NCBI GenBank assembly: GCA_038883655.1
Contig: JAVZLQ010000001.1
Location: 192,001 to 256,000 of the forward strand
Direction: 5' to 3'
Origin: Candidatus Bathyarchaeia archaeon
GTDB lineage: Archaea > Thermoproteota > Bathyarchaeia > Bathyarchaeales > Bathycorpusculaceae
DNA length: 64,000 bases
Shown: positions 12,445 through 34,261 of the stretch, in pieces
How the letters are laid out: every line of letters begins with the position of its first letter
How positions within the stretch are numbered: the stretch's first letter is position 1
The notes under the pieces: model-generated
The model's input: only the letters and a program-made list of their open reading frames with translations
Database searches by the model: none
What the model was told of the DNA's origin: nothing
Made by a program: the position numbers and the translations under genes

Positions 12445-12550
12445 CCTTTTCAAGTGCTATCTTTTGCATATTAAGAATAATAAAATTATTTGTTTTCGTC
12501 TTTGTGTGTCGCGAAATCTTTTAAAAAATATGATGTGTATACTTGTTTGG

Positions 12551-12646
12551 GCCTCGGTAGCTCAGCCTGGTGGAGCATCGCCTTGGTAAGGCGGTGGTCG
12601 CGGGTTCAAATCCCGCCCGAGAACCGCCGTGTGCGGTCGGGAAGCT
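12551..12646 (+). tRNA. tRNA-Thr(GGT) with 22-nt BHB intron in the acceptor stem (12622-12643, position 70/71)
   Basis: 5' strand GCCTCGG pairs with CCGAG|GC only after removing AACCGCCGTGTGCGGTCGGGAA; motif CCCG-AGA-ACCGC..GCGGT-CGGG-AAG; anticodon loop TT GGT AA. Confidence 0.88.
12578..12627 (+). repeat. attL (3' half of tRNA-Thr plus start of intron)
   Basis: tcgccttggtaaggcggtggtcgcgggttcaaatcccgcccgagaaccgc, identical to 17420-17469. Confidence 0.93.
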
Positions 12647-12826
12647 TTGGTTTGAACCCGCCTTGCCGCCGTTAGTGTTGTTTAGGGCGTTTTGGATGTT
12701 TAGGTTTGAGAGGTGGGCGATTGCTTGTTTTAGGGCGTTTTCTGTGAATTGTGAGATGTTTATGCCTAATTCTTTAGCTTTTTTGACTGTTTCGGCGTCT
12801 ATTGAAAGGGTTAGTTTTGTTTTCAC
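12578..12826 (-). CDS. Integrase N-terminal fragment int(N) with CcdA-like RHH domain (reads on to stop at 12521 when integrated)
   Basis: GTG start after AGGTGA; KTKLTLSIDAETVKKAKELGINISQFTENALKQAI, then att-encoded GSRAGFEPATTALPRR. Confidence 0.82.
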
Positions 12827-12870
12827 GTTCTCACCTACACGTATATTCACGTATGACAAATATTTACCAT

Positions 12871-13017
12871 TCACTCTTTTTTTTCTGTTTCGATGAGTTT
12901 GGCGATGGCGTATTCTATGGCGTGACTTCTATTAGCAAAGCGTAGTTTCTGCACTTGGTCATCTATCCATTTAACGAAGTCTTCTCTTATGGTTACGTAA
13001 ACTCTTATTTTTGGCAT
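12871..13017 (-). CDS. CopG/ribbon-helix-helix protein, 48 aa (not in ORF track)
   Basis: Manual translation MPKIRVYVTIREDFVKWIDDQVQKLRFANRSHAIEYAIAKLIETEKKE. Confidence 0.8.
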   Translation of the reverse strand: MPKIRVYVTIREDFVKWIDDQVQKLRFANRSHAIEYAIAKLIETEKKE

Positions 13018-13139
13018 TTCAACCATTCTTTTTTACCTTCCCATATGAGTAGTTTATCCACAACTATACTCAAATATACACAAATCTTATAGATTTTCCG
13101 TTCAAAAATAGGATTTGCCTTTAAGGTGAGTGTGAGAAA

Positions 13140-13358
13140 ATGGAAAAGACGGAAATCAGCTTCTTTGGAAAGAGAAAGTGGCATATTCCCAGAAAATATA
13201 TTGTGGTTTCAAAGCGTCTTTGCAGCAGAGAGTTTAAGAAGTTGAGGCAATGGTTAGACGATAAAGACAGAATAGAGATAGGCACGGATTCAGAAGGGCG
13301 AATTTGGATTTTAAACGAAACCAAAGTTGGAGAGCATTTAAAAAGACAAAATAATTAA
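13140..13358 (+). CDS. Small hypothetical protein (possibly AbrB-like)
   Basis: 72-aa ORF preceded by AGGTGA; DRIEIGTDSEGRIWI resembles the end of a swapped hairpin. Confidence 0.5.
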   Translation: MEKTEISFFGKRKWHIPRKYIVVSKRLCSREFKKLRQWLDDKDRIEIGTDSEGRIWILNETKVGEHLKRQNN

Positions 13359-13368
13359 GCGCTATTGC

Positions 13369-13749
13369 CTATTTGCCTTCCAGCTTCCCCTTTTTCTTGT
13401 CAAGAGAACTCTTATTAATTGGAATTTCCGAAGGACTGAAATTTAACAGTCTTGATAATGGCAGGTCTGCAATATCAAATTCTTGAACAAAAGTTTTAAG
13501 ATGTCGTGCAAGTTGCAGAACATCTGCTTCTGGACTGTAATAATAGGGTTGAAATTTATGTCTCAAAATTAATCCTTTATTGATGAGTTTGTTTATACTT
13601 CTGGTTAAAAGTCTGTTGAAGGTATCCTCAGAATAAAACTCTTTAAATTTCGGATAAACAGCATTAAAGATTTCTTTTCGAGATTGCCATTCAGAGCATT
13701 TTTTCAAATATTCTCGTATTGCGTTTTCTATGTTGTCCATTATGGACAT
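13369..13749 (-). CDS. Winged-helix-like protein
   Basis: SRKEIFNAV...LTRSINKLINKGLILR wHTH pattern. Confidence 0.6.
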   Translation of the reverse strand: MSIMDNIENAIREYLKKCSEWQSRKEIFNAVYPKFKEFYSEDTFNRLLTRSINKLINKGLILRHKFQPYYYSPEADVLQLARHLKTFVQEFDIADLPLSRLLNFSPSEIPINKSSLDKKKGKLEGK

Positions 13750-13796
13750 ATCTGACTGAATGACAATTTAAGACTTACTGACAAAGGTGTGTAAAC

Positions 13797-13949
13797 ATGG
13801 AAAAAGTTAGAATAAGCGTAAGAATTGATGGAGAAGACTTCAAAAGAATCCAGGAAACCATAAAGAAGGCGTATCCGACTTTACGGTCTATTTCAGACGT
13901 GGTTCGCCAAGCTCTGAAAGAGTTTTTAATAAAATATGAAAGTGTGTGA
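13797..13949 (+). CDS. CopG/ribbon-helix-helix protein, 50 aa (not in ORF track)
   Basis: Manual translation MEKVRISVRIDGEDFKRIQETIKKAYPTLRSISDVVRQALKEFLIKYESV; AGGTG upstream. Confidence 0.8.
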   Translation: MEKVRISVRIDGEDFKRIQETIKKAYPTLRSISDVVRQALKEFLIKYESV

Positions 13950-14135
13950 GTGTATGTGTGTGTATTATAGAATGTCTGTCTTGTCTTTCTTCTTTTCTTC
14001 TTTCTTCTTTACCCCTAATATACATATACATACACACATACACACTAAACACACACCTTCACTAAGAAAGCAAGTTAAGCGGCGGCGAAGCTCTGCTTCT
14101 TTTCCCATAATACACACACTCACACATACACACAC
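13942..14135. repeat. (GT)n/(AC)n inverted-repeat tract with internal pyrimidine run
   Basis: GTGTGTGTATTAT (13956-13968) is the exact reverse complement of ATAATACACACAC (14107-14119); further AC-rich block at ~14018-14057. Confidence 0.75.
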
Positions 14136-14152
14136 CCTTAAAGGTGATGTTC

Positions 14153-14398
14153 ATGGTTAGACGAGACGGAGCAGAAATAAGAAAAGAAAGAATTCAAGAA
14201 GTAATTAGACGAGTTGTCGCCCTTCTCTACAACCATGATGAAGTTGAACTAGAATCCACAGTCGCCATGCTTCAATACGAAACAGGATTAAGACCAGACA
14301 AAATAATGGAATACCTATCAATTGGAGACCAGCTTAAACGGTTCGAGCTTGACATAGACAAAAATAAAATTAGAAAAATAAAAGCTGATGAAACATGA
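14153..14398 (+). CDS. Small helical, probably wHTH DNA-binding protein
   Basis: AGGTGA RBS; VAMLQYETGLRPDKIMEYL pattern. Confidence 0.6.
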   Translation: MVRRDGAEIRKERIQEVIRRVVALLYNHDEVELESTVAMLQYETGLRPDKIMEYLSIGDQLKRFELDIDKNKIRKIKADET

Positions 14399-14520
14399 GT
14401 CTTTATGAGTTTGGTGTTTTGGTTCTTGTTCTCGTCGTGTTTTTCTAGTTGTTTTGGCATATCTGGTTAATGCCTTCTGGAGCTGGAAACTATGAGAACT
14501 AAAATTTTAATTCGCTATAA

Positions 14521-14748
14521 GTGGTGCAAAACCGCCATACTCTTTTACCCCTAATACTGTTTGTCATTGCAATATTAACAAGCATAGAACCGCACTTCTA
14601 TCCACTGTTCATATTCTTCTCAGTGGATTTTCTATTGATAGTTAGCGCCGCCTTCTACCTAATCGTTGAACATGGAATTAAAATCTTCAATAAATATGAA
14701 GATAAAGAGTTATATGGTTTATTGCAAAAAGCTGATAAATGGATTTAA
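14521..14748 (+). CDS. Small membrane protein
   Basis: Two hydrophobic segments. Confidence 0.5.
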   Translation: MVQNRHTLLPLILFVIAILTSIEPHFYPLFIFFSVDFLLIVSAAFYLIVEHGIKIFNKYEDKELYGLLQKADKWI

Positions 14749-14763
14749 CCTTATATTAGAAGG

Positions 14764-15072
14764 ATGACAATGAACATAAATAAGAGGGTTATAATTTTTA
14801 GCATATTGCTAATTTACTTTTTGCCTACATTGATTGAGTGGATTCAAATTTTTAATGAAACTTCCAAGTATGGTTATCCCCAAAGCAATAGATATTTTGA
14901 AATATTCTTAATATTCTTCCTATCATCTTTCATTTGGATGCCAATTGCAATATTTTTTTATTTCCCTACGCCATTAATATGGAAAATCAGTTTAGCTTCG
15001 TATTATATTATCGCCTACGGAATTTTGGCATGCATAATCCTTTACAAATATAGAAAAATTAGAAAAAATTAG
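14764..15072 (+). CDS. Small membrane protein
   Basis: Three hydrophobic segments, basic C-terminus; AT-rich. Confidence 0.55.
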   Translation: MTMNINKRVIIFSILLIYFLPTLIEWIQIFNETSKYGYPQSNRYFEIFLIFFLSSFIWMPIAIFFYFPTPLIWKISLASYYIIAYGILACIILYKYRKIRKN

Positions 15073-15075
15073 TTT

Positions 15076-16119
15076 TTAAATTCTATCAAAAAACCATTTC
15101 CCTAAAATTATGCCAAATAAAATCGTTCCAATAACAATCGCATAATTTTTGGGGTCTTCATACCATTTTTCTATTGAAGGGATGCTTTCCCCTTTAATTT
15201 GTGCAATATATTGTTTAGTTAAATTGTAAAGATAGTATGGGTCATTATTCCATGCATCACGGTCATAATGCGGTTCAATTGCTGTGCGCTCTGGGAATTC
15301 ATTCCAAGTAGCAATTGTTACAATATCAATTTTATTTGCCTTTGCATATTTGATAGCATCTTTCCATTCATTTTCATAAATTGGCAATGATAAATCTTTA
15401 TTTATTGTGTAATTAGGATAGCGCACATAAAAATCATCATATCGCGGACATAAAGGATACATTCGACAATAAGGTATATCGTAAAACTTGTTATTTTTCC
15501 ATGACTGATATGGTTCATATCCTTCAAAATGCGAATAAACAAAATTACAGAATGAAAAATGTCCAGAAAATTTTACGGTAAAACGGTCATCATATTGAAA
15601 TTTTGAAAAATCTGTTAAATTTGGAGCATTCCAAAAGAGAATTAATGGTTTGTTATCCATTATGAAACATAGGGAATAGTAAGGCAAAATATAATTTTCG
15701 TAAACGTAATCATAGATAGATTTATAATCGTAAATTCCAGATTGGTTAAAATCTTCAACCATCAAACAAAATTTAATGTTTGAAACTTGATTTTTTGCGC
15801 ATTCATAAACCAATTTAGCATTATTATCTATGTGATTGCCTATTCCCCACCATGAAATTATGACAAAATCTATTTTAAGGTCATTCCACCATTCTAAATG
15901 CTGATTAATAACCGTTATATTTCCGCTATTGTAATAACCTAAAATTGGTTTATCTTGATGCGTTGGGTATGACCAATTATAATAGGCATCTGGAGAATCG
16001 GGGTCATACCAAACATAATAGTATATGCCTACTTTGATTTTAGGCGTTTCTGAATAGGCGCATGGAATGCAAAGTAGCAAAAAACATAAAAAAAGGGGAG
16101 TTGAAGGGGGGACATTCAT
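15076..16119 (-). CDS. GH99/GH71-like glycoside hydrolase, secreted and membrane-anchored
   Basis: YYVWY, PILGYYNS, IISWWG, IATWNEFPERTAIEP (cf. GH99 NEWHEGTQIEP); signal peptide and C-terminal TM helix. Confidence 0.75.
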   Translation of the reverse strand: MNVPPSTPLFLCFLLLCIPCAYSETPKIKVGIYYYVWYDPDSPDAYYNWSYPTHQDKPILGYYNSGNITVINQHLEWWNDLKIDFVIISWWGIGNHIDNNAKLVYECAKNQVSNIKFCLMVEDFNQSGIYDYKSIYDYVYENYILPYYSLCFIMDNKPLILFWNAPNLTDFSKFQYDDRFTVKFSGHFSFCNFVYSHFEGYEPYQSWKNNKFYDIPYCRMYPLCPRYDDFYVRYPNYTINKDLSLPIYENEWKDAIKYAKANKIDIVTIATWNEFPERTAIEPHYDRDAWNNDPYYLYNLTKQYIAQIKGESIPSIEKWYEDPKNYAIVIGTILFGIILGKWFFDRI

Positions 16120-16585
16120 GTTTTTATACCGCCCTACGTAGTATTCCAATAGCTATGCCTAATAGCGCAATGCTGAATATTACATATATCCATTGCGATA
16201 TCATTACAGATGCAGATGAAGTCATACGTTTTAGGAATATTCCAAGAACAACCGTGCAGTTTGACCCTTACCGCATTGCCGTCTGGAAGTTGGAAAGTGA
16301 CAAAAAAACCATAGATATTATAGATAGAGACATAAAAATCGCATTAGATTATGTTAAGTTGGATTCGCATGAAGTCATGCAAAAATACGCTTTAAAAATA
16401 CCGTAGCGACTTAACATGGGCAGTCAAGCGCGGAATATCTAAACTCTATGATGTGGTAGTGCGTGTTGAGAGGAAACAAGCATTAGATAATTCTACAAAC
16501 ATGCTTTAAACATTGAAATTTTATGGAAAAGTTATCGCCTTTTCGAGGCGATTGAAGTTTGTGGAAATATAAAAAAGTAGGAAGT

Positions 16586-17469
16586 TTAAGTGATTTTAGA
16601 TTGTATTTCCGCTATGCCTTTGAACACTCTTTCCTTCAAATCGCTTATCAACGCGGGATTAAAGTAGTTCTGCATGAAAACGCTTATGCCTATCCGTCCA
16701 TGTATGAAATCGATTTCTGGCGGTTTAAGGTATTGAGTCATTAGGGTAGCGTGAGCTTCTCTTATGTCTCCAAATTTGCATTCTAATCCGCGTTTCTGTA
16801 GTCGTTGGAGAATTGCGTGTGCGCTTGGCAAGGGTTTACTACAACTTATCTTTTCAATTATTTCTTTTGGCATGAAGACAACAAAGCTCTTTTTTGTGCG
16901 TCTTATGAATTTGTTTTTAAACTTGTAGTTTTCCAAAGCACAATTTTCACAGTTGTAGTATTCGCTTAACTTTCCTTCTCTATGGAGCTGGATTATCAAG
17001 TTGTAGCTTTCCACTGCTTCAACTAACCGCATACCGCTATACGTAATGAAATCAAAGAATAACGCCAAATCTGGAAAATCCGCCTTAATTTGTTTAACCC
17101 ACTGGAAAATGCTTTCTGGGTCTATAACCTTTGTTAATCGTTGAATCAAAAGGTCATCTTTCGCCTTTCCACTCCATTTCAAACCGTAGCTTCTAACTAG
17201 TTGTTTGAACTTCTCGTAAACTCCCAAATACTTCGCTAACACACTTAACGCCTTCAACACGTGACCACGCTTGTCATCACTTAAAACCATCAAATCACTC
17301 AAGTTCTCACTAACCAAACAATGCGCATACTGTCTAGCATAACTGAACCTTTCCCTCGCCCTATTACGCTTATACAACTTCAACAAATACTCAAAGAAAC
17401 CATCCCAATCAATCAAAAGTCGCCTTGGTAAGGCGGTGGTCGCGGGTTCAAATCCCGCCCGAGAACCGC
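16586..17469 (-). CDS. Tyrosine recombinase catalytic fragment int(C), SSV1-type
   Basis: YSGMRLVEA, RRTKK, DIREAHAT, IDFIHGR, MQNYF; frame continues through att (ALPRR-LLIDWDGF). Confidence 0.9.
17420..17469 (+). repeat. attR (duplicate tRNA-Thr 3' half; variant intron continues to 17485)
   Basis: 50 bp identical to 12578-12627, then a different 5-nt loop and 14 more identical bp. Confidence 0.93.
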
Positions 17470-17815
17470 TTTGGGCGGTCGGGAAGCTCTGATTTGAACT
17501 CGCGATCGCATTCGCTTCATTGTTTAGTGCTTGTTTTTAAGCCAATACTGATCTATCCCCCTAGGATTCTTTAGAAAATGGTGTATAGCCACAGCCTTAT
17601 TTTCCCTACCCCTCCCTCTAGGCATAAGACATCCAAAAAGTGTAGATCGTTAATTAGCCTTAGATCTGCACGTATAGTTAAAGATTCACGAGCAAATTGA
17701 AGGGCAGAAGTAAAAATGATAATTTTGAATTAGATGTCTATAAGGCGCATTTAGCCATAAATGTTTTCGAAAATCTTAAATGAAAATGATTTGATAACGT
17801 CTAAATGGTGTTATA

Positions 17816-18379
17816 ATGTCTAGAAAGGAATTTATTTATAAACTACCTCGTACATTCGAAGTTCTTGACGAAGAGGAACTTTCTCGAGATATACCCAAAC
17901 TGGATTTAGAGGAAGTTTATTTTGATGAAGTCAAAGAAGGGGATTTATCGATCATGAAAGTTCCTGTCACCTCCAAGATTGTTAAGTTATTTGCTATGAT
18001 TAGTGGAGATTATAATCCTCTTCATGTGGATGAGGAATTTGCAAGGACGCTTCCTCCAAAACTTTTTGGTGGAAAAAATATAGCGCATGGGATTCTTTTA
18101 AACTCTTTTTTAAGCGCGTTGATTACGCTTTCCTTTGGGAAAGGAGTAACGTTACTAGAATGGAAAGATCAGAAATTCAAAAGGCCTGTGAAGGTTGGAG
18201 ACACAATAACGGCAAAGCTTGAAGTTGTAAGGAAGTATACAGAAGTTGTAAAGGAAAAAGAGAGACTATTCCTCGAATTAAAAGGATCAATTTTGACCTC
18301 TTCGGAAGAGGGGGAGATAGAGGCAACAAGTTGCTTAATTCTTGTCACATTATTTAAGAAGTCAAGAAAATTAATGTAA
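17816..18379 (+). CDS. MaoC-family (R)-enoyl-CoA hydratase/dehydratase
   Basis: FAMISGDYNPLHVDEEFA, IAHGIL, FKRPVKVGDTI. Confidence 0.88.
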   Translation: MSRKEFIYKLPRTFEVLDEEELSRDIPKLDLEEVYFDEVKEGDLSIMKVPVTSKIVKLFAMISGDYNPLHVDEEFARTLPPKLFGGKNIAHGILLNSFLSALITLSFGKGVTLLEWKDQKFKRPVKVGDTITAKLEVVRKYTEVVKEKERLFLELKGSILTSSEEGEIEATSCLILVTLFKKSRKLM

Positions 18380-18396
18380 CATGTCATAGCGGTTTA

Positions 18397-19188
18397 TCAT
18401 TGTTGCTCCTTGATAAATTGTAATGCTATGTTGTTGAATTCTTCTGGACGTTCCCAGATTACCGCGTGCCCTGAATTCTTTATTGCGACAAAACGCGATC
18501 CTTGTATTTTGTTATGAATTATTTTAGAGTACTTTGGAGGCTTTATTTTATCATTTTCTGCAGCAATAATTAATGTCGGCTTTTTGATTTTGTAAAGTTC
18601 AGGTGTTATATTTAACTGCATAAAACCCTTTAGCAATTCAATAAAAGCATCAATGTCAACTGCGGTGTCATAAATTGGGGCTGTGCCACTCACGAAATCC
18701 CACCTTTTTTCTATGAACTCGTCAGAGAAAATATCCGGATAAACCGCTTGGAAAAGATACTTTCCACTTCTGAGTCTAGCCGCAATTAGCCATCTCTCAA
18801 CTATGGCTTTGACCACTGGATCTACGTGGCTTACTGCACAAGACACAATTAAAGATTTCACCATCTCCGGATATCTCGTTGCAAAGATTAAGGCAACCTC
18901 TCCGCCGAAAGATATTCCAACAATGTGGGCGCTTTGTATCTTTAGTTTCTGCATTAGTGCCCTAAGATCTTCTACATGAAGCTCCATAGGATATTTCATT
19001 AATGGCTTTTCCGATTTCCCTTGCCCCCTAAAATCTAACAAGAGCGTTTGAAATTGTTTTGCAAAATAGGGCACTTGATTCATCCAGCTTGAAGTGTTTG
19101 CAAGTATTCCGTTAAGAAAAACTATTGTTTCGCCGGCACCATGCAGCTCATAATACATTTGAATATCGTTTATTTTAGCGTAGGGCAT
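18397..19188 (-). CDS. Alpha/beta hydrolase
   Basis: DFRGQGKS, nucleophile elbow GISFG, SGH; start MPYAK at 19188. Confidence 0.88.
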   Translation of the reverse strand: MPYAKINDIQMYYELHGAGETIVFLNGILANTSSWMNQVPYFAKQFQTLLLDFRGQGKSEKPLMKYPMELHVEDLRALMQKLKIQSAHIVGISFGGEVALIFATRYPEMVKSLIVSCAVSHVDPVVKAIVERWLIAARLRSGKYLFQAVYPDIFSDEFIEKRWDFVSGTAPIYDTAVDIDAFIELLKGFMQLNITPELYKIKKPTLIIAAENDKIKPPKYSKIIHNKIQGSRFVAIKNSGHAVIWERPEEFNNIALQFIKEQQ

Positions 19189-19216
19189 ACGGGCTACCTC
19201 CCCATTTCCATTTATG

Positions 19217-20755
19217 TTAACCATATTTTTCGATAAGCTTTTCCCGCAAAATTTTGCCAGCTGGAGTTTTTGGTATAGAATCCACATATTCTATAACTTT
19301 TGGAATTTTGTATTTTGCCATTTTGTCTTCACAATATTTGATAACTTCTTCTTTGCTCAGTTTTTCTCCAGCTTTCAACGCAATTAACGCTTTAGGAACT
19401 TCTCCCCATTTTTCATCCGGAATTCCGAAAACAACTGCTTCCTGTATTTTCGGATGGGAACTAAGTATTCTCTCGATTTCTTCCGGATAAATGCTCTCGC
19501 TTCCGCTCCTTATCACGTTTTTCTTTCTACCTACTATGTAAAAGAAACCTTCCTTGTCATATTCGACTATGTCGCCAGTATGAAGCCACCCATCTTCTAA
19601 CGCTCTTGATGTCTCTTCAGGGTTGTTCCAATAACCCCCAAAAAGCGATGGTGCTCTTATGAGAAGTTCGCCAGGAGTATTAGGAGCCACTTCTTCTCCT
19701 TTATCGTTTACTACTTTAACGTCGATCAGAAGGTTGGGTTTTCCTATGGAACCCATTTTATTTATTGCGTCTTTGGGGTCTAGTGCAAAAACCCCTGGTC
19801 CTGCTTCTGTAAGGCCGTATCCTTGCTTTACTAAGACACCCTTTTTCAAGAAGGCATCAACAATGTCCTTAGTCAGAGCAGCTCCTCCCGTCGTAAACCA
19901 ACGGACAGAGGTAAGGTCGGCTGTCTTAAACTTTGGCGATTCTATAAGCATCTTAAGTTGGGTGGGTACAAGAAACTGGAAAGTGACTCTCTCCTTTTCA
20001 ATCAGTTCTAGAAGCTTTTCTGGGTTCCATCTATACATGAGTATATTTGTGCCTTGCCAAAAAAGTAATGGCAATGTGTATGTGTATCCACCAATGTGAA
20101 ATAGTGGAACGCATGTGACAGTAACTTCGCCGGGCACTATTAAGTCCCTAATAGTTATCATAGCATTCCAAAATATCATTCTGTATGGTATAATTGCGCC
20201 TTTCGGTGTTCCAGTTGTTCCTCCAGTCTGCAAAATCATGAATGGGTCTTCTAAATTAACTGGTGTCGGTTTGTCTAATCTTTCCTCATAATCTACTAAA
20301 TTCTCAAAATCTATCGAATCTATTATGTGGCTCTTTCCTAAATGCACGAGCCAACTGCCTTTTATCTTTTTTAAATCTTCAACTTTTTCGGTAAATTCTT
20401 CTTCGTATATGAGAACTTTAGGCTTGATTAGTGTTATTTGCTCCTCTATCTCTCTAGATGTATATCTAGTGTTGACTGGTATGAAGATACCGCCTATTTT
20501 TGTTGTTGCAAATAGTGCATCCAGCATTTCTATGCGATTCCATGAGATCATCGCAACTCTATCGCCTTTTTTAAGTTTTAATTCGTTCTTAAAGAAAGCA
20601 GCAATTCCATCTACTCTTTCACTGAAAACCTTGTAAGTGAATCGTCTTTCACTTTTTTCATCTATCAAAGCAACGTGATTTGGGTTTATTTTTGCATGCT
20701 GAGCTATCCAGTTATTAACCCAGTAGCCTTGTGTTGCAACGTTTTCTACGTTCAT
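19217..20755 (-). CDS. Acyl-CoA synthetase / long-chain fatty acid-CoA ligase
   Basis: QTGGTTGTPKG, QGYGLTE, WLHTGD, PKTPAGK. Confidence 0.92.
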   Translation of the reverse strand: MNVENVATQGYWVNNWIAQHAKINPNHVALIDEKSERRFTYKVFSERVDGIAAFFKNELKLKKGDRVAMISWNRIEMLDALFATTKIGGIFIPVNTRYTSREIEEQITLIKPKVLIYEEEFTEKVEDLKKIKGSWLVHLGKSHIIDSIDFENLVDYEERLDKPTPVNLEDPFMILQTGGTTGTPKGAIIPYRMIFWNAMITIRDLIVPGEVTVTCVPLFHIGGYTYTLPLLFWQGTNILMYRWNPEKLLELIEKERVTFQFLVPTQLKMLIESPKFKTADLTSVRWFTTGGAALTKDIVDAFLKKGVLVKQGYGLTEAGPGVFALDPKDAINKMGSIGKPNLLIDVKVVNDKGEEVAPNTPGELLIRAPSLFGGYWNNPEETSRALEDGWLHTGDIVEYDKEGFFYIVGRKKNVIRSGSESIYPEEIERILSSHPKIQEAVVFGIPDEKWGEVPKALIALKAGEKLSKEEVIKYCEDKMAKYKIPKVIEYVDSIPKTPAGKILREKLIEKYG

Positions 20756-20769
20756 ATCTCTTCCTTTAA

Positions 20770-21765
20770 TTATATCCATCTAAATAATGCGGCAGACATC
20801 ACGTATCCTACGCCAGAAGTGCAGAAGCACACAAGGTCATCTTTCTTAATTTTCCCTTGTTCCAGAGCGTCATGCAACGCGAATATCACGCATGCCGACC
20901 CGTTATATCCATATTTGTCCATTATCCAGTGAGTCTTTGTTAAGGGTAGGCCAAGTTCCTTCATAACATCCTTTATTGTATTTACGTTTACCTGCGTCAT
21001 CAATATCATATTTAAGTCTTCTACCTTATATCCCGCTTTCTTCACGGTGTCTCTAATAAGCTGAGGCCAATGCGCAAAGTTTATATCCGCTGGGTAGCGA
21101 TGACCACTTTCATGAAATCGTAAATAATGTTTTTTCTCTTCCACCATTTTGATGGTTATTGGGTTAGCTGTGCCCACGTAAATGCCGTAACAGTCCCAGT
21201 AACTTCCGTCAGCAATAATTTTTGAAGTTATATATCCAGGCTTATCCGAGGCGGTCAATATTACTGCTCCAGCACCATCGCTAAAAATCGGGGCTAGCCA
21301 CTTTTCGTTCCAGTCAAGCCACTTAGTCATTCCATAGGATCCTGTTACAAGTACATAATTTATGCTTGGGTCATTCATAATGTAGTTTGATGCTATAGAA
21401 AGAGCGATGGGCACGTCTGTACAAGCGGCATTAATATCGAAGCAACCTGCATTTTTGGCTCCAAGCTTGTGTTGAATAACGGCTGATGTTGGTGGACTTA
21501 CAAAGTCGGGAGTATCAGTAGCTAAGATAAGGAGATCTAAATCTTCTGGCTTTAAATTTGCATTTTTAAGTGCGTGTCGAGCTGCTTCTACAGCCATATC
21601 AGAAGTAGCCTCGTTAGGTTCTGAAATGTGTCTTAAAGTGATTCCTGTTCTTGGGCGAAGCCATCCATCAACATCAAATCCTATTCGTTTTCCTAATTCT
21701 TCGTTTGTTTCAACTTTTTTCGGTAGGTAAATTCCTGTGCTCAAAATTTTTGCGTATCTATTCAT
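20770..21765 (-). CDS. fabH: 3-oxoacyl-ACP synthase III (FabH)-like protein, atypical active site
   Basis: TGIYLP, DINAACT, FSDGAGA; His and Asn positions read LMTQVN and YGYNGS. Confidence 0.8.
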   Translation of the reverse strand: MNRYAKILSTGIYLPKKVETNEELGKRIGFDVDGWLRPRTGITLRHISEPNEATSDMAVEAARHALKNANLKPEDLDLLILATDTPDFVSPPTSAVIQHKLGAKNAGCFDINAACTDVPIALSIASNYIMNDPSINYVLVTGSYGMTKWLDWNEKWLAPIFSDGAGAVILTASDKPGYITSKIIADGSYWDCYGIYVGTANPITIKMVEEKKHYLRFHESGHRYPADINFAHWPQLIRDTVKKAGYKVEDLNMILMTQVNVNTIKDVMKELGLPLTKTHWIMDKYGYNGSACVIFALHDALEQGKIKKDDLVCFCTSGVGYVMSAALFRWI

Positions 21766-21777
21766 ATCTCCAATCTC

Positions 21778-22542
21778 CTAAATTTTTATTTTATGTAGAA
21801 ATTCTTCCAATAAGCTATTGAATTTTTCTGGGGCTTCTCTATTCGGCAAGTGCCCAACGCCTGGTATTATTTGCAAGATTGATCCCTGTATGGATTTGCT
21901 TATTGTTTCGGCGGAGCTTACTGGAGTGACTATGTCAAGATCTCCTACTATTATAAGTGTTGGAACTTTGATTTTCGGCAAGAGTTCGGAGTAGTCAAGC
22001 ATGGACGTTGCCTCTGCTGATTGAATGTAGACGTCTTTTCTGGTTCCTGCAATCATCTTTGCTACTTCTTCTTTGAGTTGTTCTGGTGCATTCGCAGCGA
22101 GGGCGAATGTGGCTACTTCAGCGCCAATTATTTCCATGCTCATGCCTTCTAAGACTGCAGTTTGTGCTGGTGGAAATTTGTGTCTAGCAGCCACTAAGAT
22201 CATGCTTAAAAAGTAGTCTGGATATTTTTTGTACATTTCAAAAAGAACTAATGCGCCCATTGAAAGACCGCAAAAATGCGCCTTTTTTATCCCTAAATGG
22301 TCAAGTAGACTTTTGACATCCTCTGCAAAATCTTCAATTTCGATTTTCTTTTTTGGGGTACTTGACTTTCCATGCCCTCGCAAGTCCAAAGCAACAACCC
22401 TGAATTTTTCAGAAAAAAAGTTAACTTGGTGTCTCCAACTCTCAAGAGATTCTCCTAACCCGTGAATAAAAACAATGTTTTCAGATCCTGTTCCCTCGAA
22501 CACGTAGTTTATCTTTACGCCGTTTATTTCAACTTGAGGCAA
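21778..22542 (-). CDS. Alpha/beta hydrolase (PcaD-like)
   Basis: FIHGLG, DLRGHGKS, GLSMG, GVGHL. Confidence 0.88.
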   Translation of the reverse strand: MPQVEINGVKINYVFEGTGSENIVFIHGLGESLESWRHQVNFFSEKFRVVALDLRGHGKSSTPKKKIEIEDFAEDVKSLLDHLGIKKAHFCGLSMGALVLFEMYKKYPDYFLSMILVAARHKFPPAQTAVLEGMSMEIIGAEVATFALAANAPEQLKEEVAKMIAGTRKDVYIQSAEATSMLDYSELLPKIKVPTLIIVGDLDIVTPVSSAETISKSIQGSILQIIPGVGHLPNREAPEKFNSLLEEFLHKIKI

Positions 22543-22635
22543 GCAAAGTTCTCCCCGACATATAATTCTAGATTAGTATTTTTGGCATTTGTAATTATTT
22601 AAATCTAATTGCATAGTTTGTCGGTTATTAACGTT

Positions 22636-23358
22636 CTAAATACTTACTCCCAAATGCTTTCTTATCAATTCTTTATCTTCCGCCACATCTTCCATATTAC
22701 CATGGTGAACTATTTTGCCCATTTCCAGAATGTAACATTCATCTCCAACTTCTCTTGCCAATTTGAAGCTCTGCTCCACTAAAATCATTGTGACTTGCTC
22801 TTTAAGTTTAACCAATGTTTCTGAAAACTTCTTTACAAGGATAGGGCTTAACCCCTCTGTTGGCTCATCAATTAAAAGGAGCTCGTTTTTATTAATTATT
22901 GCACGGGCAATCAGCAGCATTTTTTGTTGTCCACCGCTTAAATTATGAGCTTTATCTTTCAACATATTTTTTAGATTTGGAAATATGTCGAAAATGAATT
23001 GTAACCTTTCTTTATAGGAATCTTCTGGGCCTTTGAATGCTATTTGAAGGTTTTCTTCAACTGTTAGCTTACCAAAAATTTTTCTTTGAGAGGGAACATA
23101 AGCGATTCCCTTCCTTGCGATTTCGTACGTGGGTAATTTTGTTATTTCTTCTCCCTTGAAGATTACCTTTCCTGACTTGGTGGGAATAATATTCATTATG
23201 CTTTTAAGCAGAGTTGTTTTACCTGCACCATTTCTTCCAAGTATTACAGTTAACTTGCCTTTTTCAGCAGCGAATGATACTCCTTGAAGTATGTGAAATG
23301 GACCAATATAGGTGTGCATGTCTTCGACGTGCAGCAACCCCACTTTAGTCTCCTCCAA
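22636..23358 (-). CDS. livF: Branched-chain amino acid-type ABC transporter ATPase
   Basis: GRNGAGKTT, LSGGQQKML, IDEPTEGL. Confidence 0.88.
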   Translation of the reverse strand: MEETKVGLLHVEDMHTYIGPFHILQGVSFAAEKGKLTVILGRNGAGKTTLLKSIMNIIPTKSGKVIFKGEEITKLPTYEIARKGIAYVPSQRKIFGKLTVEENLQIAFKGPEDSYKERLQFIFDIFPNLKNMLKDKAHNLSGGQQKMLLIARAIINKNELLLIDEPTEGLSPILVKKFSETLVKLKEQVTMILVEQSFKLAREVGDECYILEMGKIVHHGNMEDVAEDKELIRKHLGVSI

Positions 23359-24106
23359 GGTAAACTTTTTGAACTAATTCATTTTCGGCAATTTCTTTTG
23401 GAGTACCATCCGCAATAACAGCCCCTTCATGCATAACCATAACCGAGTCACATATGCCCATAATAACATCAATCTTGTGTTCAACGAGAAGAATTGTAAT
23501 TTTTGAATTCTGCTTTATTTTTCGTATTGCATTCACAACGTCTGGCACTTCCTCCATCGATACGCCTGCAGTAGGTTCATCAAGCAACAGAAGTTCTGGA
23601 TCTGTTGCGATTGCCATGGCAATTTCAAGTTTTCTTTGATCGCTATGCGGCAAGAAATTTACTGGATAAAATGCTTTTTGTTTTAAACCAATGCTTTCTA
23701 GAATTTCAAGGGCTCTTCTGTGATATTCTTTAAAGCGATCTATGCTAGAATAGAAATTGTAGTTTTCTCTTCCTATCGATTGTACGGCTAATCTTACATT
23801 TTCTAAGACTGATAATCTTGCAAAGACATTTGTTATTTGAAATGATCTGCTAATTCCTTTTTTAGAAATTTTGTTTGGTGGCAATCCAGTAATATCTTCT
23901 CCTTTAAAGAATATCCTTCCACTAGTGGGTTTCAGGAGTCCACAGATTAAGTTAAATAGCGTCGTTTTTCCAGCTCCGTTGGGGCCTATTAAGCCTTTGC
24001 AAATTCCTTGTTCTATGGTAATGCTGACGTTGTTAACTGCTGCCAATCCGCCGAATTTTTTGGTTAAGTCCCTTGTTTCTAATATAGCGCTGCTTAAATT
24101 CGTCAT
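23345..24106 (-). CDS. livG: Branched-chain amino acid-type ABC transporter ATPase
   Basis: FGGLAAV, GPNGAGKTT, LLDEPTAG, VEH. Confidence 0.88.
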   Translation of the reverse strand: MTNLSSAILETRDLTKKFGGLAAVNNVSITIEQGICKGLIGPNGAGKTTLFNLICGLLKPTSGRIFFKGEDITGLPPNKISKKGISRSFQITNVFARLSVLENVRLAVQSIGRENYNFYSSIDRFKEYHRRALEILESIGLKQKAFYPVNFLPHSDQRKLEIAMAIATDPELLLLDEPTAGVSMEEVPDVVNAIRKIKQNSKITILLVEHKIDVIMGICDSVMVMHEGAVIADGTPKEIAENELVQKVYLGGD

Positions 24107-24107
24107 T

Positions 24108-25340
24108 CTATTTACCTCTTATAGAAGTTTTTATTAATGTCGCTATTTTTTTGATGTTTTTCTTTACAGACACTCTCTTTAGTTTCCACGTAATTACAAT
24201 GCCGTATGGGAAGAATAATATTACAACTATGTAGAATACGCCCAAAACCAGCATCCAATACTCTCCAATACCACGAATGCTTGTCAACTCATTTGCTAAA
24301 AGCGTGATTATCCCTGCGCCAAGCATGGGTCCGACCAATGTGCCTAAACCGCCGAGGATGTTGTAAAGCAGTATATTTATCATGATAGCAGAGCTTAGAA
24401 CACTGTATGGGCTGATGCTTAGGGCAAAGGGAGTGTAAAGTGCTCCAGCCAGGCTTGCAAACATGCTTGAAATGATTGAAGCAATTAACTTGTAAATTGG
24501 CACGTCATAACCCAACATTTTCGTTCTTTCCTCGTTTTCTCTAATAGCCACAAATATTTTACCCATTGGAGAGTCTATGATTCTCTTTGCAATGAGGTAA
24601 CATATTGCAATAGGAAGTAAAGCGATAAGGTAGTATGTGTTCGTGACCATTATCATCGTGTTTTTCTCCCTGATTGATCCCTCTAGAAGGATATTCAGTT
24701 TCGATGGAAAACTGTAGATTAATATCGCAAGAACTGCTGCTATGAAAGCGCAATATGCGATTTTGTTCTTGATAGCTTTATTCTTATTTGCCAAGTCACG
24801 TAATATGGTCAAAAATAGCATAATCACTATTGCGATAGAAATTACAAACATCGCGTAGATAATTAAATCGAATCTTAAAAATTCGGGTCTTGGAACAGAA
24901 AGTCCGGTTTCGCCCCCTGACAGTTCAACCCATTTGTTGAAAATTGCGAAAATCATCTCTGCAAAGGCCAGTGTAACTAATGCATAGTATATTCCGCTAA
25001 CTCTGAAGGTGAAGATGCCTAATGCCAGCCCAACTAGCGCGCCAAATAATATTGCTATCAAAACAGCTAAGAGAAAGGGAAAATTCATCCTTAAAAGTAA
25101 TGCGACCACATAAGCGCCGATGCCGAATGGTGCAGCATGGCCAAAACTTACCAAACTTGTGTAGCCCAAGGCTAAGTCGTAGCTCATAGCGAGTAACGCC
25201 CAAATGAGCATTTCTGTTAGCAGTGATAAGTAATACACGGAAGGCGTTGCTATCGGAAAAGTAAACAATAATGCGAAGCTTGCCAGCAGAAGTTTCTTTT
25301 TTGTCAAAACTTCAAAGCTGCGTTTGATGATTTTGATCAT
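24108..25340 (-). CDS. livM: Branched-chain amino acid-type ABC transporter permease
   Basis: VSFGHAAPFGIGAY, AIRENEER, GGLGTLVGP. Confidence 0.86.
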   Translation of the reverse strand: MIKIIKRSFEVLTKKKLLLASFALLFTFPIATPSVYYLSLLTEMLIWALLAMSYDLALGYTSLVSFGHAAPFGIGAYVVALLLRMNFPFLLAVLIAILFGALVGLALGIFTFRVSGIYYALVTLAFAEMIFAIFNKWVELSGGETGLSVPRPEFLRFDLIIYAMFVISIAIVIMLFLTILRDLANKNKAIKNKIAYCAFIAAVLAILIYSFPSKLNILLEGSIREKNTMIMVTNTYYLIALLPIAICYLIAKRIIDSPMGKIFVAIRENEERTKMLGYDVPIYKLIASIISSMFASLAGALYTPFALSISPYSVLSSAIMINILLYNILGGLGTLVGPMLGAGIITLLANELTSIRGIGEYWMLVLGVFYIVVILFFPYGIVITWKLKRVSVKKNIKKIATLIKTSIRGK

Positions 25341-25341
25341 A

Positions 25342-26178
25342 TTATTTTCCCACGCCAAATAGTCCTTCTGTTCTTATCAGTAGAACAATAGCCATCGCCA
25401 GAAAGTCAATAACAAAAGTTAGTTGAGGGAAGAAATATTCTGAGAGTCCATGAAGCATTCCAATTATGAGGCTCCCATAAAAAGAGCCCTTAAAGCTTCC
25501 TAATCCGCCAACCACCGTTACAACTAGGCTAGTGAACATCCATGTCGACCCCATCTGTGGCGTTGCTCCGAGCCAAGGTACTGCAGAAGCCCCGCCGAAA
25601 GCGGCTAGTAAGGCTCCGAATCCAAATGTTAACGTGAAAACTCTTTTTATGTTGATGCCTAAAGCTTCCACCATCTCCGCATCCTCTGTTCCTGCTTGGA
25701 CGATTATGCCCATTTTGGTTCGAGTTAAAAGTAGATATGTAAAGACAGCAATCATGAAACCGAGGAATGCGAGAAAAGTTCGATATGCTGAACCACTAAG
25801 GTATGGCAGATAGAAAATTTTTGGTGTGCGTCCCCAAATTATTAGCACAAGTTGAGAGAATAAGAGTAAATAGCCCAATGTAAGCATTATTTGAGCTATT
25901 GGATTGCCATGTACACGGCGAAGGGTTAAGCGTTCGACTATTACCCCTATCAAGAAGCCGAAAAAGGCTGCGCAGATTAATGCAACAGCAAAATTGTTAG
26001 TTAATTCGAAAAATGTTACGGCAATGTAGGCTCCTATCATGAAAAAGGCTCCATGGGCAAAGTTTAGGATTCCCATTAAACCAAATATTATGGAGAAGCC
26101 AGATGCTATGAGAAAGAGTAGCATTGAGTAAGCTAATCCATCTAGAATTGCAGCTGCGACCAGATTTGGATCAATCAT
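25342..26178 (-). CDS. livH: Branched-chain amino acid-type ABC transporter permease
   Basis: GLMGILNFAHG, VVGGLGSFKG. Confidence 0.88.
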   Translation of the reverse strand: MIDPNLVAAAILDGLAYSMLLFLIASGFSIIFGLMGILNFAHGAFFMIGAYIAVTFFELTNNFAVALICAAFFGFLIGVIVERLTLRRVHGNPIAQIMLTLGYLLLFSQLVLIIWGRTPKIFYLPYLSGSAYRTFLAFLGFMIAVFTYLLLTRTKMGIIVQAGTEDAEMVEALGINIKRVFTLTFGFGALLAAFGGASAVPWLGATPQMGSTWMFTSLVVTVVGGLGSFKGSFYGSLIIGMLHGLSEYFFPQLTFVIDFLAMAIVLLIRTEGLFGVGK

Positions 26179-26280
26179 GTGAAAATCTCCAGTTCATGTG
26201 GCTGAGCTAAAATTTTATATTAAAAAAGGTTTATAAAACTTGTTTTAATCATAGTTTGAAGCTTAGGGGAGTAAAAACTA

Positions 26281-28179: not shown

Positions 28180-28243
28180 AGCTCGCGGAAAGCGCACAAA
28201 TCTTATTAATTTATAACTTAAAATAATACATTCGGGTTATAAC

Positions 28244-29785: not shown

Positions 29786-29861
29786 ACCTAACAAACCTCA
29801 CTTTTCTTTTTCACTTCAACATAAGAAACTGTAATATAAGATATTCTCAACTAGTTTAAGT

Positions 29862-31721: not shown

Positions 31722-31796
31722 TCTACAAATTTTCTATAAAAAAGTTCCACAAAACCTTTATAAAATTAATCAACAATATAACCTCACGGTGTTCTT

Positions 31797-34256: not shown

Positions 34257-34261
34257 CGGCA

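What the first reader, a model, noticed from the sequence alone, without database searches (positions are those of the whole stretch)
17436..17509. Antisense trailer that can unzip the T-arm, conserved through G-U wobbles
Seen: downstream of both tRNA copies is a complement of the T-arm. TTTGAACCCGC (12651-12661) pairs perfectly with GCGGGTTCAAA (12600-12610). GATTTGAACTCGCGATCGC (17491-17509) pairs over 19 nt with 17436-17454, and all three deviations are G-U pairs on the + strand. Inference: wobble-only changes point to selection on RNA rather than on a DNA palindrome. The BHB central helix uses C65-G68, which competes with the cloverleaf, so the trailer could be a built-in folding chaperone that extends the outer helix until splicing is complete.
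Basis: partly seen in the sequence, partly recalled or inferred. Interest (0 to 1): 0.75.

Follow-up and report, generated by a model that had tools for sequence, protein, structure and literature searches.

The report
Integrase-borne tRNA intron with splint trailer
An integrated mobile element has replaced the end of this archaeon's only tRNA-Thr(GGU) gene with its own copy, which carries a short intron three bases from the tRNA's end and a downstream stretch that pairs with the T-arm and probably holds the tiny last exon in place for splicing.

Summary
TTTGAACCCGC (12651-12661) is the exact complement of 12600-12610, and 17491-17509 pairs over 19 nt with 17436-17454 with three G-U pairs.

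The "second tRNA copy" is only a 3' part. The two copies are an 84-nt direct repeat flanking a 4.8-kb element whose SSV-type integrase gene is split across them.

Both copies carry a 22-nt insert between G70 and G71 of tRNA-Thr(GGU). Removing it restores the end CCGAG|GCU found in 29 of 29 relatives.

The insert has a BHB-like shape. Its inner helix is a different but still paired sequence in other loci, and G-U pairs fall only on the tRNA strand.

Insert and trailer lie inside the integrase reading frame and came from the element. The native insert-free end survives 24 kb downstream.

The T-arm complement is present in 6 of 6 insert-bearing loci with readable trailers, though one element translates the stretch in another frame. 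It is absent from two related insert-less elements.

Best reading (about 0.55): an element-delivered intron whose trailer closes the 3' splice-site loop and tethers the 3-nt exon.

The parts
12551..12621 (+). tRNA-Thr(GGU) 5' exon, positions 1-70 (71 nt; one extra D-loop base)
   Evidence: ARAGORN. Rfam tRNA 52.2 bits over model positions 3-68 only. 87-99% identical to Thr-GGU genes of relatives.
12622..12643 (+). 22-nt insert, read as an intron at 70/71: A, then ACCGC-CGTGT-GCGGT hairpin (h'), then CGGG (pairs with C65-G68), then AA
   Evidence: Absent in 29 of 29 relatives' genes. Fold. Helix pair counts.
12644..12646 (+). 3-nt 3' exon G71 C72 U73
   Evidence: GCT follows CGGGA(A/T) in 7 of 7 insert-bearing sequences. 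It equals the native end in relatives.
12649..12661 (+). Trailer strand of the 13-bp helix with T-stem 5' strand, T-loop and C61 (12600-12612).
12600..12612 (+). T-arm partner of the copy-1 trailer helix (G49 to C61)
12663..12670 (+). Distal trailer pairing with the anticodon-stem 3' strand and variable loop (12590-12597) in the MFE fold
   Evidence: Contig variants 12665 G>A and 12670 C>T keep these pairs.
12578..12661 (+). Direct repeat copy 1 (attL side). It starts at the first base of the anticodon stem; 12578-12627 is identical to copy 2.
   Evidence: D1, 84 nt, 93%.
17420..17503 (+). Direct repeat copy 2 (attR side): 3' part of the tRNA with insert 17464-17485 and GCT 17486-17488. No 5' half, so not a gene.
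17491..17509 (+). Copy-2 trailer complement (the finding): 19 bp with 17436-17454, three of them G-U
   Evidence: (I15).
17436..17454 (+). Variable-loop and T-arm partner of the copy-2 trailer
12521..12874 (-). Int(N): N-terminal piece of the split integrase (RHH/CcdA-like domain). It reads antisense through trailer, insert and tRNA.
   Evidence: ORF. PF07362 E 5e-08. Frame.
16586..17500 (-). Int(C): catalytic piece of the integrase, open through copy 2 in the same frame as Int(N) through copy 1 (offset 4842 = 3 x 1614)
   Evidence: PF16795 E 4.8e-09. Homologues in 139 of 401 genomes of the order.
12622..17419 (.). About 4.8 kb integrated element 1. The true left edge is a crossover somewhere within 12578-12627.
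17504..17545 (-). Remnant of an older int(N): ...KQALNNEANAIASS..., preceded by a stop, resembling element 1's ...QNALNNTNGGKAGS...
17504..36447 (.). About 19 kb older island between copy 2 and the native tRNA end; absent at this site in same-genus G003
   Evidence: Synteny. Cargo genes.
36448..36458 (+). 11-nt remnant of the native, insert-free tRNA 3' end (C63 to U73: CGCCCGAGGCT), followed by flank 82% identical to G003's downstream flank
5122..5376 (+). One of two EndA-family (tRNA splicing endonuclease) genes of the genome
   Evidence: PF01974, 90.1 bits, G000:C1:197122-197376.

Best explanation
**What it is.** Window 12551-12672 is the only tRNA-Thr(GGU) gene found in this Bathyarchaeia-like genome. 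From about the anticodon arm onward, its 3' part was replaced by the attP of a small element with an SSV-type integrase. The attP lies inside the integrase ORF, so integration split the gene.

**What the element copy adds.** It differs from the native end in two ways:
- It has a 22-nt intron between G70 and G71.
- It has a 3' trailer complementary to the T-arm.

**Proposed mechanism.**
1. In the primary transcript the trailer pairs with G49-C61 and opens the T-arm.
2. C65-G68 pairs with CGGG of the intron to form the 4-bp central helix.
3. A69-G70-A forms the 5' 3-nt bulge next to a 5-bp intron hairpin.
4. The 3' site (AA|G71) lies in an internal loop closed by the trailer helix. This is a relaxed bulge-helix-bulge motif.
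5. The two-gene splicing endonuclease cuts both sites.
6. The trailer helix keeps the 3-nt exon (G71 C72 U73 plus trailer) bound to the body until RtcB ligates it.
7. The tRNA then refolds, the trailer is trimmed after U73 and CCA is added.

**Status of each step.**
- Shown: the anatomy, the element origin, conservation and covariation of the helices, and the overlap with the integrase frame.
- Inferred: transcription, cleavage, ligation, and the need for the trailer.

Copy 2 (the finding's coordinates) is the same cassette left by an older, related element. It is now a non-genic att remnant.
For: **1. The insert breaks the acceptor stem and its removal restores it.**
- Rfam aligns only model positions 3-68.
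- 29 of 29 relatives read CCGAG directly followed by GCT.
- All 7 insert-bearing sequences read CGGGA(A/T)GCT.

**2. The gene has no substitute.**
- One Thr(ggt) gene was found in G000.
- One full-length copy was found in each of G155 and G075, both insert-bearing.

**3. The shape is BHB-like and its inner helix covaries.**
- The central helix is invariant.
- h' reads ACCGC:GCGGT, ACCGT:ACGGT, an 8-bp helix in L064 and a 9-bp helix in L063, all different in sequence but paired.
- 98.2% of cells are paired, 2 pairs change on both sides, and the slid controls give 23-53%.

**4. The structure belongs to the + (tRNA) strand.**
- All wobble pairs are G-U on +.
- The + strand folds better by 2.1, 7.5, 6.7 and 7.1 kcal/mol in 4 of 7 sequences and about equally in 3. 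The minus strand is never better by more than 0.5.

**5. The trailer complement goes with the insert.**
- A Watson-Crick run of at least 8 occurs in 5 of 6 insert-bearing loci. The sixth, L064, has 10 bp with one G-U.
- The same run occurs in 1 of 28 insert-less loci.
- L012 and L028 are related elements on the same tRNA without the insert, and they lack the complement.

**6. Protein coding does not explain the conservation.**
- L064's Int(N) reads the same stretch in another frame, giving a wholly different peptide.
- P0002 implies a third frame.

**7. Thermodynamic predictions.**
- P(central helix) is 0.93-0.99 with the trailer in win1, L064 and L067, against about 0.1-0.8 in the two truncated versions.
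- In L061 and L062 it is 0.61-0.63 with the trailer, against 0.65 when cut at U73 and 0.48 when cut at U73+4 (37 C).
- After excision the 3' fragment stays bound, with ddG -15.4, -11.1 and -8.2 kcal/mol at 37, 60 and 75 C. Without the complement the values are -2.7, 0 and 0.

**8. The host has the machinery.**
- Two EndA-family genes and one RtcB.
- Other tRNAs in the genome carry introns.

**9. The cassette came from the element.**
- The integrase is split and in frame across the repeats.
- The native insert-free end and the G003-like flank lie at 36448.
- The same cassette sits on at least four different host 5' halves.
- It persists in G155 and G075 where no Int(C) remains nearby.
Against: - No RNA evidence exists. 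No RNA holder was listed and no spliced joint was seen; the runs were contigs only.
- The 3' splice site is not in a strict 3-nt bulge. P(G64:C72) is 0.09, and forcing that pair costs 1.7-2.4 kcal/mol.
- Without the trailer the central helix is still predicted at 0.44-0.77 in most loci. In L061 and L062 the trailer does not raise it above the version cut at U73 (0.61-0.63 against 0.65). So in silico the trailer helps in some loci but is not shown to be needed.
- The 13-bp trailer helix must be undone for the tRNA to mature, and this could be a kinetic trap.
- All insert-bearing loci descend from one element lineage, so the co-occurrence of insert and trailer may be a single historical event.
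- One insert-less genus has a 9-nt T-arm complement in its trailer with no int(N) nearby (L029, and more weakly L027).
- The T-arm side never varies, so no two-sided covariation is possible in the trailer helix.
- L063's trailer could not be read.
Confidence: 0.55

Rival explanations
1. The insert is a real, spliced intron delivered by the element, but the T-arm complement is not needed for splicing. It could be a leftover of the inverted duplication that created the cassette. It could also serve another RNA, for example a hairpin in the antisense integrase mRNA or a 3'-end or termination structure.
For: - The central helix and 5' bulge are predicted at 0.44-0.77 without the trailer.
- The whole 3' region is an imperfect palindrome centred on the intron loop.
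- An insert-less genus also has a 9-nt T-arm complement in its trailer (L029).
- The minus-strand fold is nearly as stable in 3 of 7 sequences.
Against: - The complement is kept in 6 of 6 readable insert-bearing loci across Int(N) divergence down to about 40% identity and across a frame change.
- Its deviations are G-U on the tRNA strand only.
- A 3-nt exon has no predicted way to stay bound at 60 C or above without it.
Confidence: 0.2
2. The repeat acts at the DNA level. The T-arm and its inverted copy would be integrase binding sites or a cruciform within attP/attL/attR, and the RNA-like features would be incidental.
For: - The repeat lies inside att sites of an integrase element, and both arms sit within the 84-nt direct repeat.
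- tRNA stem-loops often serve as core sites for tyrosine recombinases (my own recall; no call).
Against: - Related elements targeting the same tRNA (L012, L028) have no such repeat.
- The arms are about 40 bp apart, unlike a core site with a short overlap region (direct reading plus recall).
- Deviations would be A-C mismatches in DNA or on the minus strand.
- The loop between the arms differs between the two copies, while the identical segment is 12578-12627. Exchange is therefore more likely upstream of the repeat.
Confidence: 0.1
3. The gene is a damaged scar. The insert is not removed, and tRNA-Thr(GGU) function comes from an unassembled copy or from another isoacceptor.
For: - G000 is a 93% complete MAG with 6.5% contamination.
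- There is no RNA evidence.
- The other Thr isoacceptors were not found by ARAGORN, so the tRNA set is incompletely known.
Against: - Three genomes in two genera have only the insert-bearing copy.
- GCT, CGGG and the hairpin geometry are kept across diverged loci and across reading frames.
- The cassette persists after the element decayed.
Confidence: 0.08

Closest known systems
Intron gain in tRNA-Thr(GGU) of Caldiarchaeum subterraneum by integration of a mobile element (Sugahara et al. 2012, PMC3293823; abstract and passages read)
   Same: The isoacceptor is the same and so is the logic. An attP carrying an intron recombines with an intron-less attB, so the rebuilt tRNA gene gains an intron. 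tRNA fragments are left as direct repeats.
   Different: - In that case the intron is at 24/25 on the 5' side. The element is inferred to be pNOB8-type, with the recombinase gene separate from attP.
- Here the intron is at 70/71. It lies inside the ORF of an SSV-type integrase and comes with a trailer complementary to the T-arm.
- The native intron-less end is still present downstream in the same contig.
SSV-type (fusellovirus-like) integration: attP inside int, gene partitioned on integration into a tRNA gene (described in the passages of PMC3293823; Pfam PF16795)
   Same: The catalytic domain matches PF16795. There are direct repeats of the tRNA 3' part, and Int(N) and Int(C) lie at opposite ends in one frame.
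   Different: - The N-terminus is an RHH/CcdA-like domain.
- The attP-coded linker includes an intron and trailer beyond the tRNA.
- The repeat is 84 nt, against 44 bp cited for SSV1 in that paper.
Non-canonical BHB and relaxed-BHB introns of Crenarchaeota and relatives (Yoshihisa 2014, PMC4090602; Fujishima and Kanai 2014, PMC4033280; passages only)
   Same: There is a 4-bp central helix, a 3-nt 5' bulge and a variable intron hairpin. The host has two EndA-family genes, as in lineages with heteromeric broad-specificity enzymes.
   Different: - Positions listed in the passages I read run from 3/4 to 59/60 'etc.'; none is at 70/71.
- Here the 3' exon is 3 nt, so the exon-side helix has to come from the trailer.
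Leader/trailer helices of split and permuted tRNAs (Nanoarchaeum, Caldivirga, Cyanidioschyzon; passages of PMC4090602)
   Same: Sequence that is not part of the mature tRNA pairs to build the splice motif and hold the pieces together for cleavage and ligation.
   Different: In those cases the two flanks pair with each other, in trans or across a permuted junction. Here a cis 3' trailer pairs with mature tRNA sequence (the T-arm) and must later be displaced.

Membership tests
Archaeal BHB-type tRNA intron | Removal restores a canonical cloverleaf | tested here: met
   G1-C72 and C2-G71 form only after removing 12622-12643. Rfam aligns model positions 3-68 on the unspliced gene. Relatives read CCGAG|GCT in 29 of 29 loci.
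Archaeal BHB-type tRNA intron | 4-bp central helix flanked by a 3-nt bulge and outer helix on the 5' splice-site side | tested here: met
   CCCG:CGGG, bulge A-G-A and h' of 4-9 bp occur in 7 of 7 sequences. Two registers of the 5' bulge are predicted about equally (0.56 and 0.42).
Archaeal BHB-type tRNA intron | Second 3-nt bulge with an adjacent outer helix on the 3' side (strict hBHBh') | tested here: not met
   The MFE fold puts AA|GCUUU in a 3x7 internal loop. P(G64:C72) = 0.09, and the strict form costs 1.7-2.4 kcal/mol. Only the relaxed class fits.
Archaeal BHB-type tRNA intron | Host encodes a splicing endonuclease and an RtcB ligase | tested here: met
   Two PF01974 genes (106.7 and 90.1 bits) and one PF01139 gene (590.9 bits). 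Subunit type and the specificity loop were not examined.
Archaeal BHB-type tRNA intron | Splicing observed in RNA | not testable with these tools
   No RNA holder was listed, and the runs laid were contigs only.
SSV-type integrase element | Catalytic domain of the archaeal SSV-type integrase family | tested here: met
   PF16795, E 4.8e-09, 36.8 bits against a cut-off of 27. Catalytic residues were not checked.
SSV-type integrase element | attP inside int; after integration the N and C parts lie at opposite ends, in frame across the att repeat | tested here: met
   The frame is shared across a 4842-nt offset. RHH...AGSNQSFPTAHGGSRAGFEPATTALPRR continues as ...PRRLLIDWDG.... Unbroken homologues with RHH plus catalytic domain exist, for example P0002 and P0010.
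SSV-type integrase element | Direct repeats identical to part of a tRNA gene flank the element | tested here: met
   D1, 84 nt at 93%, with the first 50 nt identical.
Intron gain through an intron-bearing attP (Sugahara 2012 model) | The native attB lacks the intron while the element-derived end has it | tested here: met
   The native end CGCCCGAGGCT and the G003-like flank lie at 36448. G075's attR reads CCGAGGCT (L057). Protein P0002 implies the insert inside an unbroken int ORF; its DNA was not seen.
Split/permuted-tRNA type flank helix | Non-mature flanking sequence pairs to build the splice motif | tested here: inconclusive
   Pairing is predicted and conserved. Here the partner is mature T-arm sequence, not another flank, and function is untested.

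The most novel reading that the evidence does not exclude
A lineage of small integrating elements of hot-spring Bathyarchaeia carries a portable '3'-end cassette' inside the linker of its integrase gene. The cassette consists of the last tRNA exon bases, an intron 3 nt from the tRNA end, and a splint trailer.

On integration it turns an intron-less essential tRNA gene into an intron-bearing one, and the cassette stays after the element decays. This would be a direct, multi-locus snapshot of how tRNA introns are gained.

It would also be the first intron whose splice motif is completed by the 3' trailer pairing with the T-arm, with three codes overlapping on one stretch: tRNA exon, RNA structure and integrase peptide.
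Probability: 0.45. Interest if true: 0.75.

Novelty: new variant of a known kind. Interest (0 to 1): 0.62.

Why it matters
**Origin of tRNA introns.** How non-canonical tRNA introns arise is an open question. One published case (Caldiarchaeum tRNA-Thr) led to the proposal that integrating elements donate them. This locus gives a second, cleaner case with all the pieces in one contig:
- the rebuilt gene;
- the split integrase;
- an older remnant of the same cassette;
- the native intron-less end.

The same cassette also sits on several different host genes and inside an apparently unbroken integrase gene.

**Splicing mechanism.** The locus poses a concrete question: how is an intron removed when the 3' exon is only three nucleotides long? 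The trailer helix offers a testable answer.

**Annotation.** Standard tRNA finders mis-call the 3' end of such genes. ARAGORN's end falls at 12625, and the Rfam alignment is truncated.

Tried and rejected
**RNA evidence.**
- The look-up of sequencing runs listed no holder on record as RNA.
- Read laying on X1, X2, X5 and X7 used contigs only and showed no joint across 12621/12644.
- This says nothing either way about splicing.

**Free elements.**
- The DNA pattern gave 0 hits in viral contigs.
- The integrase, as a single protein and as alignment A2, found no relative in viral contigs.

**Sequences I could not obtain.**

**Hits dropped before counting.**
- The G203/L071 hit of the order-wide pattern lies in a coding region and is not a tRNA.
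- L065 and L066 match the 21-nt pattern but do not show the CGGG..GCT geometry. They are unresolved and were left out of all counts of 'insert-bearing loci'.
- L010 was too short for the trailer control, so that control has n = 28 of 29.

**Ideas considered and rejected.**
- A third full att copy in the window: none was found at up to 3 mismatches. Only the 11-nt native remnant exists.
- The second integrase homologue of G000 (contig C5) targets a different tRNA.
- Protein coding as the cause of conservation: rejected because of the frame change in L064.

**Literature limits.**
- I found no description of an intron at 70/71, or of a trailer/T-arm helix, in searches or in the passages read.
Either may list such positions.
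- One search was a listing only; those papers were not read.
Full report
**Observation.**
12651-12661 is the exact complement of 12600-12610. 17491-17509 pairs with 17436-17454 over 19 positions, three of them G-U on the + strand.

The repeat finder lists the 15-nt core (I15) and an 84-nt, 93% direct repeat at 12578-12661 / 17420-17503. The folds of both regions beat their shuffles:
- Copy 1: z = -2.52, with 4 of 200 shuffles as good.
- Copy 2: z = -5.97, with 0 of 200.

In a simpler test, copy 2's run was reached by 0 of 5000 shuffles. Copy 1's run of 12, with G-U allowed, was reached by 135 of 5000.

**What the two copies are.**
Only the first copy is a gene. ARAGORN calls tRNA-Thr(ggt) at 12551-12625, but Rfam aligns only model positions 3-68. 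After CCGAG (G70) the sequence runs on with 22 nt that do not belong to a tRNA, then GCT.

In 29 of 29 Thr(GGU) loci from relatives, CCGAG is followed directly by GCT, often GCTCCA. Removing 12622-12643 therefore gives exactly the native end, with C2-G71, G1-C72 and U73.

The second copy starts at the first base of the anticodon stem and has no 5' half.

Two minus-strand ORFs abut the copies:
- ORF 12874->12521 has an RHH/CcdA-like N-terminus (PF07362, E 5e-08).
- The frame 17500->16586 matches the archaeal SSV-type integrase family (PF16795, E 4.8e-09).

The repeat offset is 4842 = 3 x 1614, and both ORFs read the repeat in the same frame. This is therefore one integrase gene split by integration at an attP inside it. 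Unbroken homologues with both domains exist. Homologues of the C part occur in 139 of 401 sampled genomes of the order, next to 3' parts of various tRNAs.

**Where the insert came from.**
The same-genus genome G003 has the same upstream flank and an insert-free gene. Its downstream flank resumes in this contig at window position about 36448 with 82% identity. At that point, 11 nt of the native end (CGCCCGAGGCT) survive.

So 12622-36447 is inserted DNA, made of two parts:
- the 4.8-kb element;
- an older island of about 19 kb, whose left edge right of copy 2 still reads like an int(N) fragment. Its cargo is metabolic and transport genes.

Both insert-bearing ends are thus element-derived, and the host gene originally had no insert.

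**Other loci with the same cassette.**
A 21-nt pattern that ends two bases into the insert found:
- two Bathyarchaeia MAGs (L061, L062);
- five metagenome contigs;
- nothing in viral contigs.

Four more sequences show the same geometry after CCGAG (L061, L062, L064, L067), plus L063 with a cut-off trailer. L065 and L066 match the pattern but not the geometry and were set aside.

The cassette sits on at least four different host 5' halves, which argues for several separate integrations.

It is rare in sampled genomes:
- 3 of 401 in the class.
- The same three in the order, plus one chance hit in a coding region.

In G155 only int(N) remains, with no Int(C) in the 13 kb downstream. In G075 only a remnant is left, while an Int(C) with an attR carrying the native end sits on another contig (L057). 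In both genomes the insert-bearing gene is the only full-length Thr(GGU) copy found. The same holds for G000.

**Is it an intron?**
In all seven sequences:
- C65-G68 can pair with CGGG.
- A69-G70-A is left as a 3-nt bulge.
- An inner helix follows.
- A(A/T) plus G71 follow the CGGG strand.

The inner helix differs in sequence and length between loci but stays paired. It reads ACCGC:GCGGT or ACCGT:ACGGT in four of the loci, and forms an 8-bp helix in L064 and a 9-bp helix in L063. Its G-U pairs are on the + strand only.

On alignment A1, 98.2% of cells pair and two pairs change on both sides. Sliding the partners drops pairing to 23-53%. With seven related rows this is modest support.

The + strand folds better than the minus strand by 2.1 to 7.5 kcal/mol in four sequences and about equally in three.

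The genome has two EndA-family genes and an RtcB, and other intron-bearing tRNAs.

On the 3' side the motif is relaxed. The MFE fold places AA|GCUUU in a 3x7 internal loop. The strict bulge with G64:C72 has probability 0.09 and costs about 2 kcal/mol.

**The trailer.**
A Watson-Crick complement of at least 8 nt to the T-arm lies downstream in 5 of 6 insert-bearing loci with readable trailers. L064 has 10 bp with one G-U. The same is true of 1 of 28 insert-less loci (L029).

Two insert-less loci, L012 and L028, are followed by a related int(N) and have no such complement. The repeat is therefore not a general feature of this integrase family's attP.

Protein coding does not explain it either:
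- G000, L061 and L067 read the stretch as ...AGSNQSFPT..GSRAGFEP...
- L064's open Int(N) frame reads it as ...ADSIRASRSPEFPEILGRDLNP....
- P0002 is an unbroken 352-aa integrase, 67% identical, with ...KLPDHINCGSRAGFEPATTALPRR. KLPD is what the reverse complement of GTCGGGAAGCTT encodes, and GS fits AGAACC. This points to the same cassette in a third frame inside an intact gene. That is an inference from the protein only; the DNA was not seen.

Beyond the 13-bp core the trailers pair further, but in different registers:
- with the anticodon-stem 3' strand in copy 1, L062 and L064;
- with the variable loop in copy 2.

Variants seen in metagenome contigs at 12650, 12665 and 12670 keep pairs. They form one L062-like haplotype, not three independent events.

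**Predicted effect of the trailer.**
- With the trailer, the T-stem and acceptor stem are predicted at about zero.
- The central helix is at 0.93-0.99 in win1, L064 and L067, against about 0.1-0.8 in the truncated versions.
- In L061 and L062 it is 0.61-0.63 with the trailer, against 0.65 when cut at U73 and 0.48 when cut at U73+4 (37 C).
- After excision the 3' fragment with trailer stays bound to the 5' exon, with ddG -15.4, -11.1 and -8.2 kcal/mol at 37, 60 and 75 C. Without the complement, binding is -2.7, 0 and 0.

This is the basis for reading the trailer as a tether for a 3-nt exon and as the closure of the 3' splice-site loop. It is a prediction from energy parameters, not a measurement.

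**The wobble argument.**
The T-arm side is invariant, so only one-sided changes can be seen. On the trailer strand every C>T or A>G transition gives G-U, and 7 of the 13 positions are C or A. Three out of three such changes has a chance of roughly 0.16 under a transitions-only model (my arithmetic). The argument gains weight only together with three other results: the wobbles in the inner helix of L063 and L064, the strand asymmetry and the frame change.

**Comparison with what is known.**
- Sugahara et al. 2012 proposed that an intron at 24/25 of Caldiarchaeum tRNA-Thr(GGU) came from an intron-bearing attP of a pNOB8-type element (abstract and passages).
- Reviews list non-canonical intron positions from 3/4 to 59/60 'etc.'. 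They tie relaxed motifs to heteromeric or three-unit endonucleases. They also describe flank helices in split and permuted tRNAs.
- I found no mention of an intron at 70/71, or of a trailer pairing with the T-arm, in searches or in the passages read.
- Supplementary tables and Sugahara 2008 were not seen.

I therefore file this as a new variant of known kinds: a relaxed BHB-type intron, SSV-type integration, and intron gain through attP.

**Verdict.**
- The main addition is that the cassette is mobile-element cargo lying inside an integrase ORF.
- Splicing and the need for the trailer remain untested.

Noticed in passing
window 2131-2221: Probably a complete tRNA-Arg(UCU) with an insert of about 17 nt in the D-loop region. 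ARAGORN missed it, and Rfam aligns only model positions 9-63 at 2170-2214 (29.1 bits). I read it by eye; no BHB check was made.
   Followed up: partly
window 17504-36447: Island of about 19 kb, absent at this site in same-genus G003. Cargo: MaoC-like dehydratase, two alpha/beta hydrolases, acyl-CoA synthetase, KAS III-like enzyme, a branched-chain amino-acid type ABC transporter (2 ATPases, 2 permeases, binding protein), two PQQ beta-propeller proteins, a PETase-like hydrolase with Ig domains, and TackOD1-domain ORFs. Its right junction keeps only 11 nt of the tRNA end, so it is not a clean attR.
   Followed up: partly
L065 about 4805-5060 (metagenome contig): A Thr(GGU) gene with a long insert in the anticodon arm that contains an inverted copy of the anticodon stem-loop. 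After CCGAG the sequence lacks the CGGG..GCT geometry but has ATTTGAATCC (a T-arm complement with one G-U) about 33 nt downstream. An RHH-like ORF lies upstream of the tRNA. Unresolved.
   Followed up: partly
L066 about 1-200 of the reverse strand (metagenome contig): A different tRNA (acceptor GCCGGGG...CCCCGGC) appears to carry, inside its T-arm region, the same 21 nt as the Thr T-arm, acceptor and start of insert. This could be a transposed or recombined fragment. Read by eye only.
   Followed up: no
L057 (G075:C8:22168-25743) and L062/L081 (G075:C10): In G075 the insert-bearing tRNA with an int(N) remnant and the decayed Int(C) with an attR bearing the native end lie on two long contigs, tens of kb from either contig end. 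This suggests a rearrangement between att sites rather than one provirus.
   Followed up: partly
L029 and L027 (G052, G060; one genus): Insert-less Thr(GGU) genes whose trailers (GCTCCA, a few nt, then TTGAACCCG or GAATCCGC) hold an 8-9-nt complement of the T-arm without a detectable int(N) nearby.
   Followed up: partly
G000:C5:7800-9100: Second integrase of the same family (50% identity, one TAA in frame) abutting the reverse complement of the 5' half of another tRNA. It has a different target and orientation.
   Followed up: partly
Protein P0004: An integrase homologue starts LNPRPPPYQLKPRAGFEPATTALP. This looks like two tRNA-derived peptides in tandem, the same tRNA stretch read in two frames, which hints at duplicated att segments in some elements.
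   Followed up: no
window 13940-14135: GT/AC-rich short repeats and inverted repeats inside element 1 (families D2, I2, I10, I16). Function unknown.
   Followed up: no
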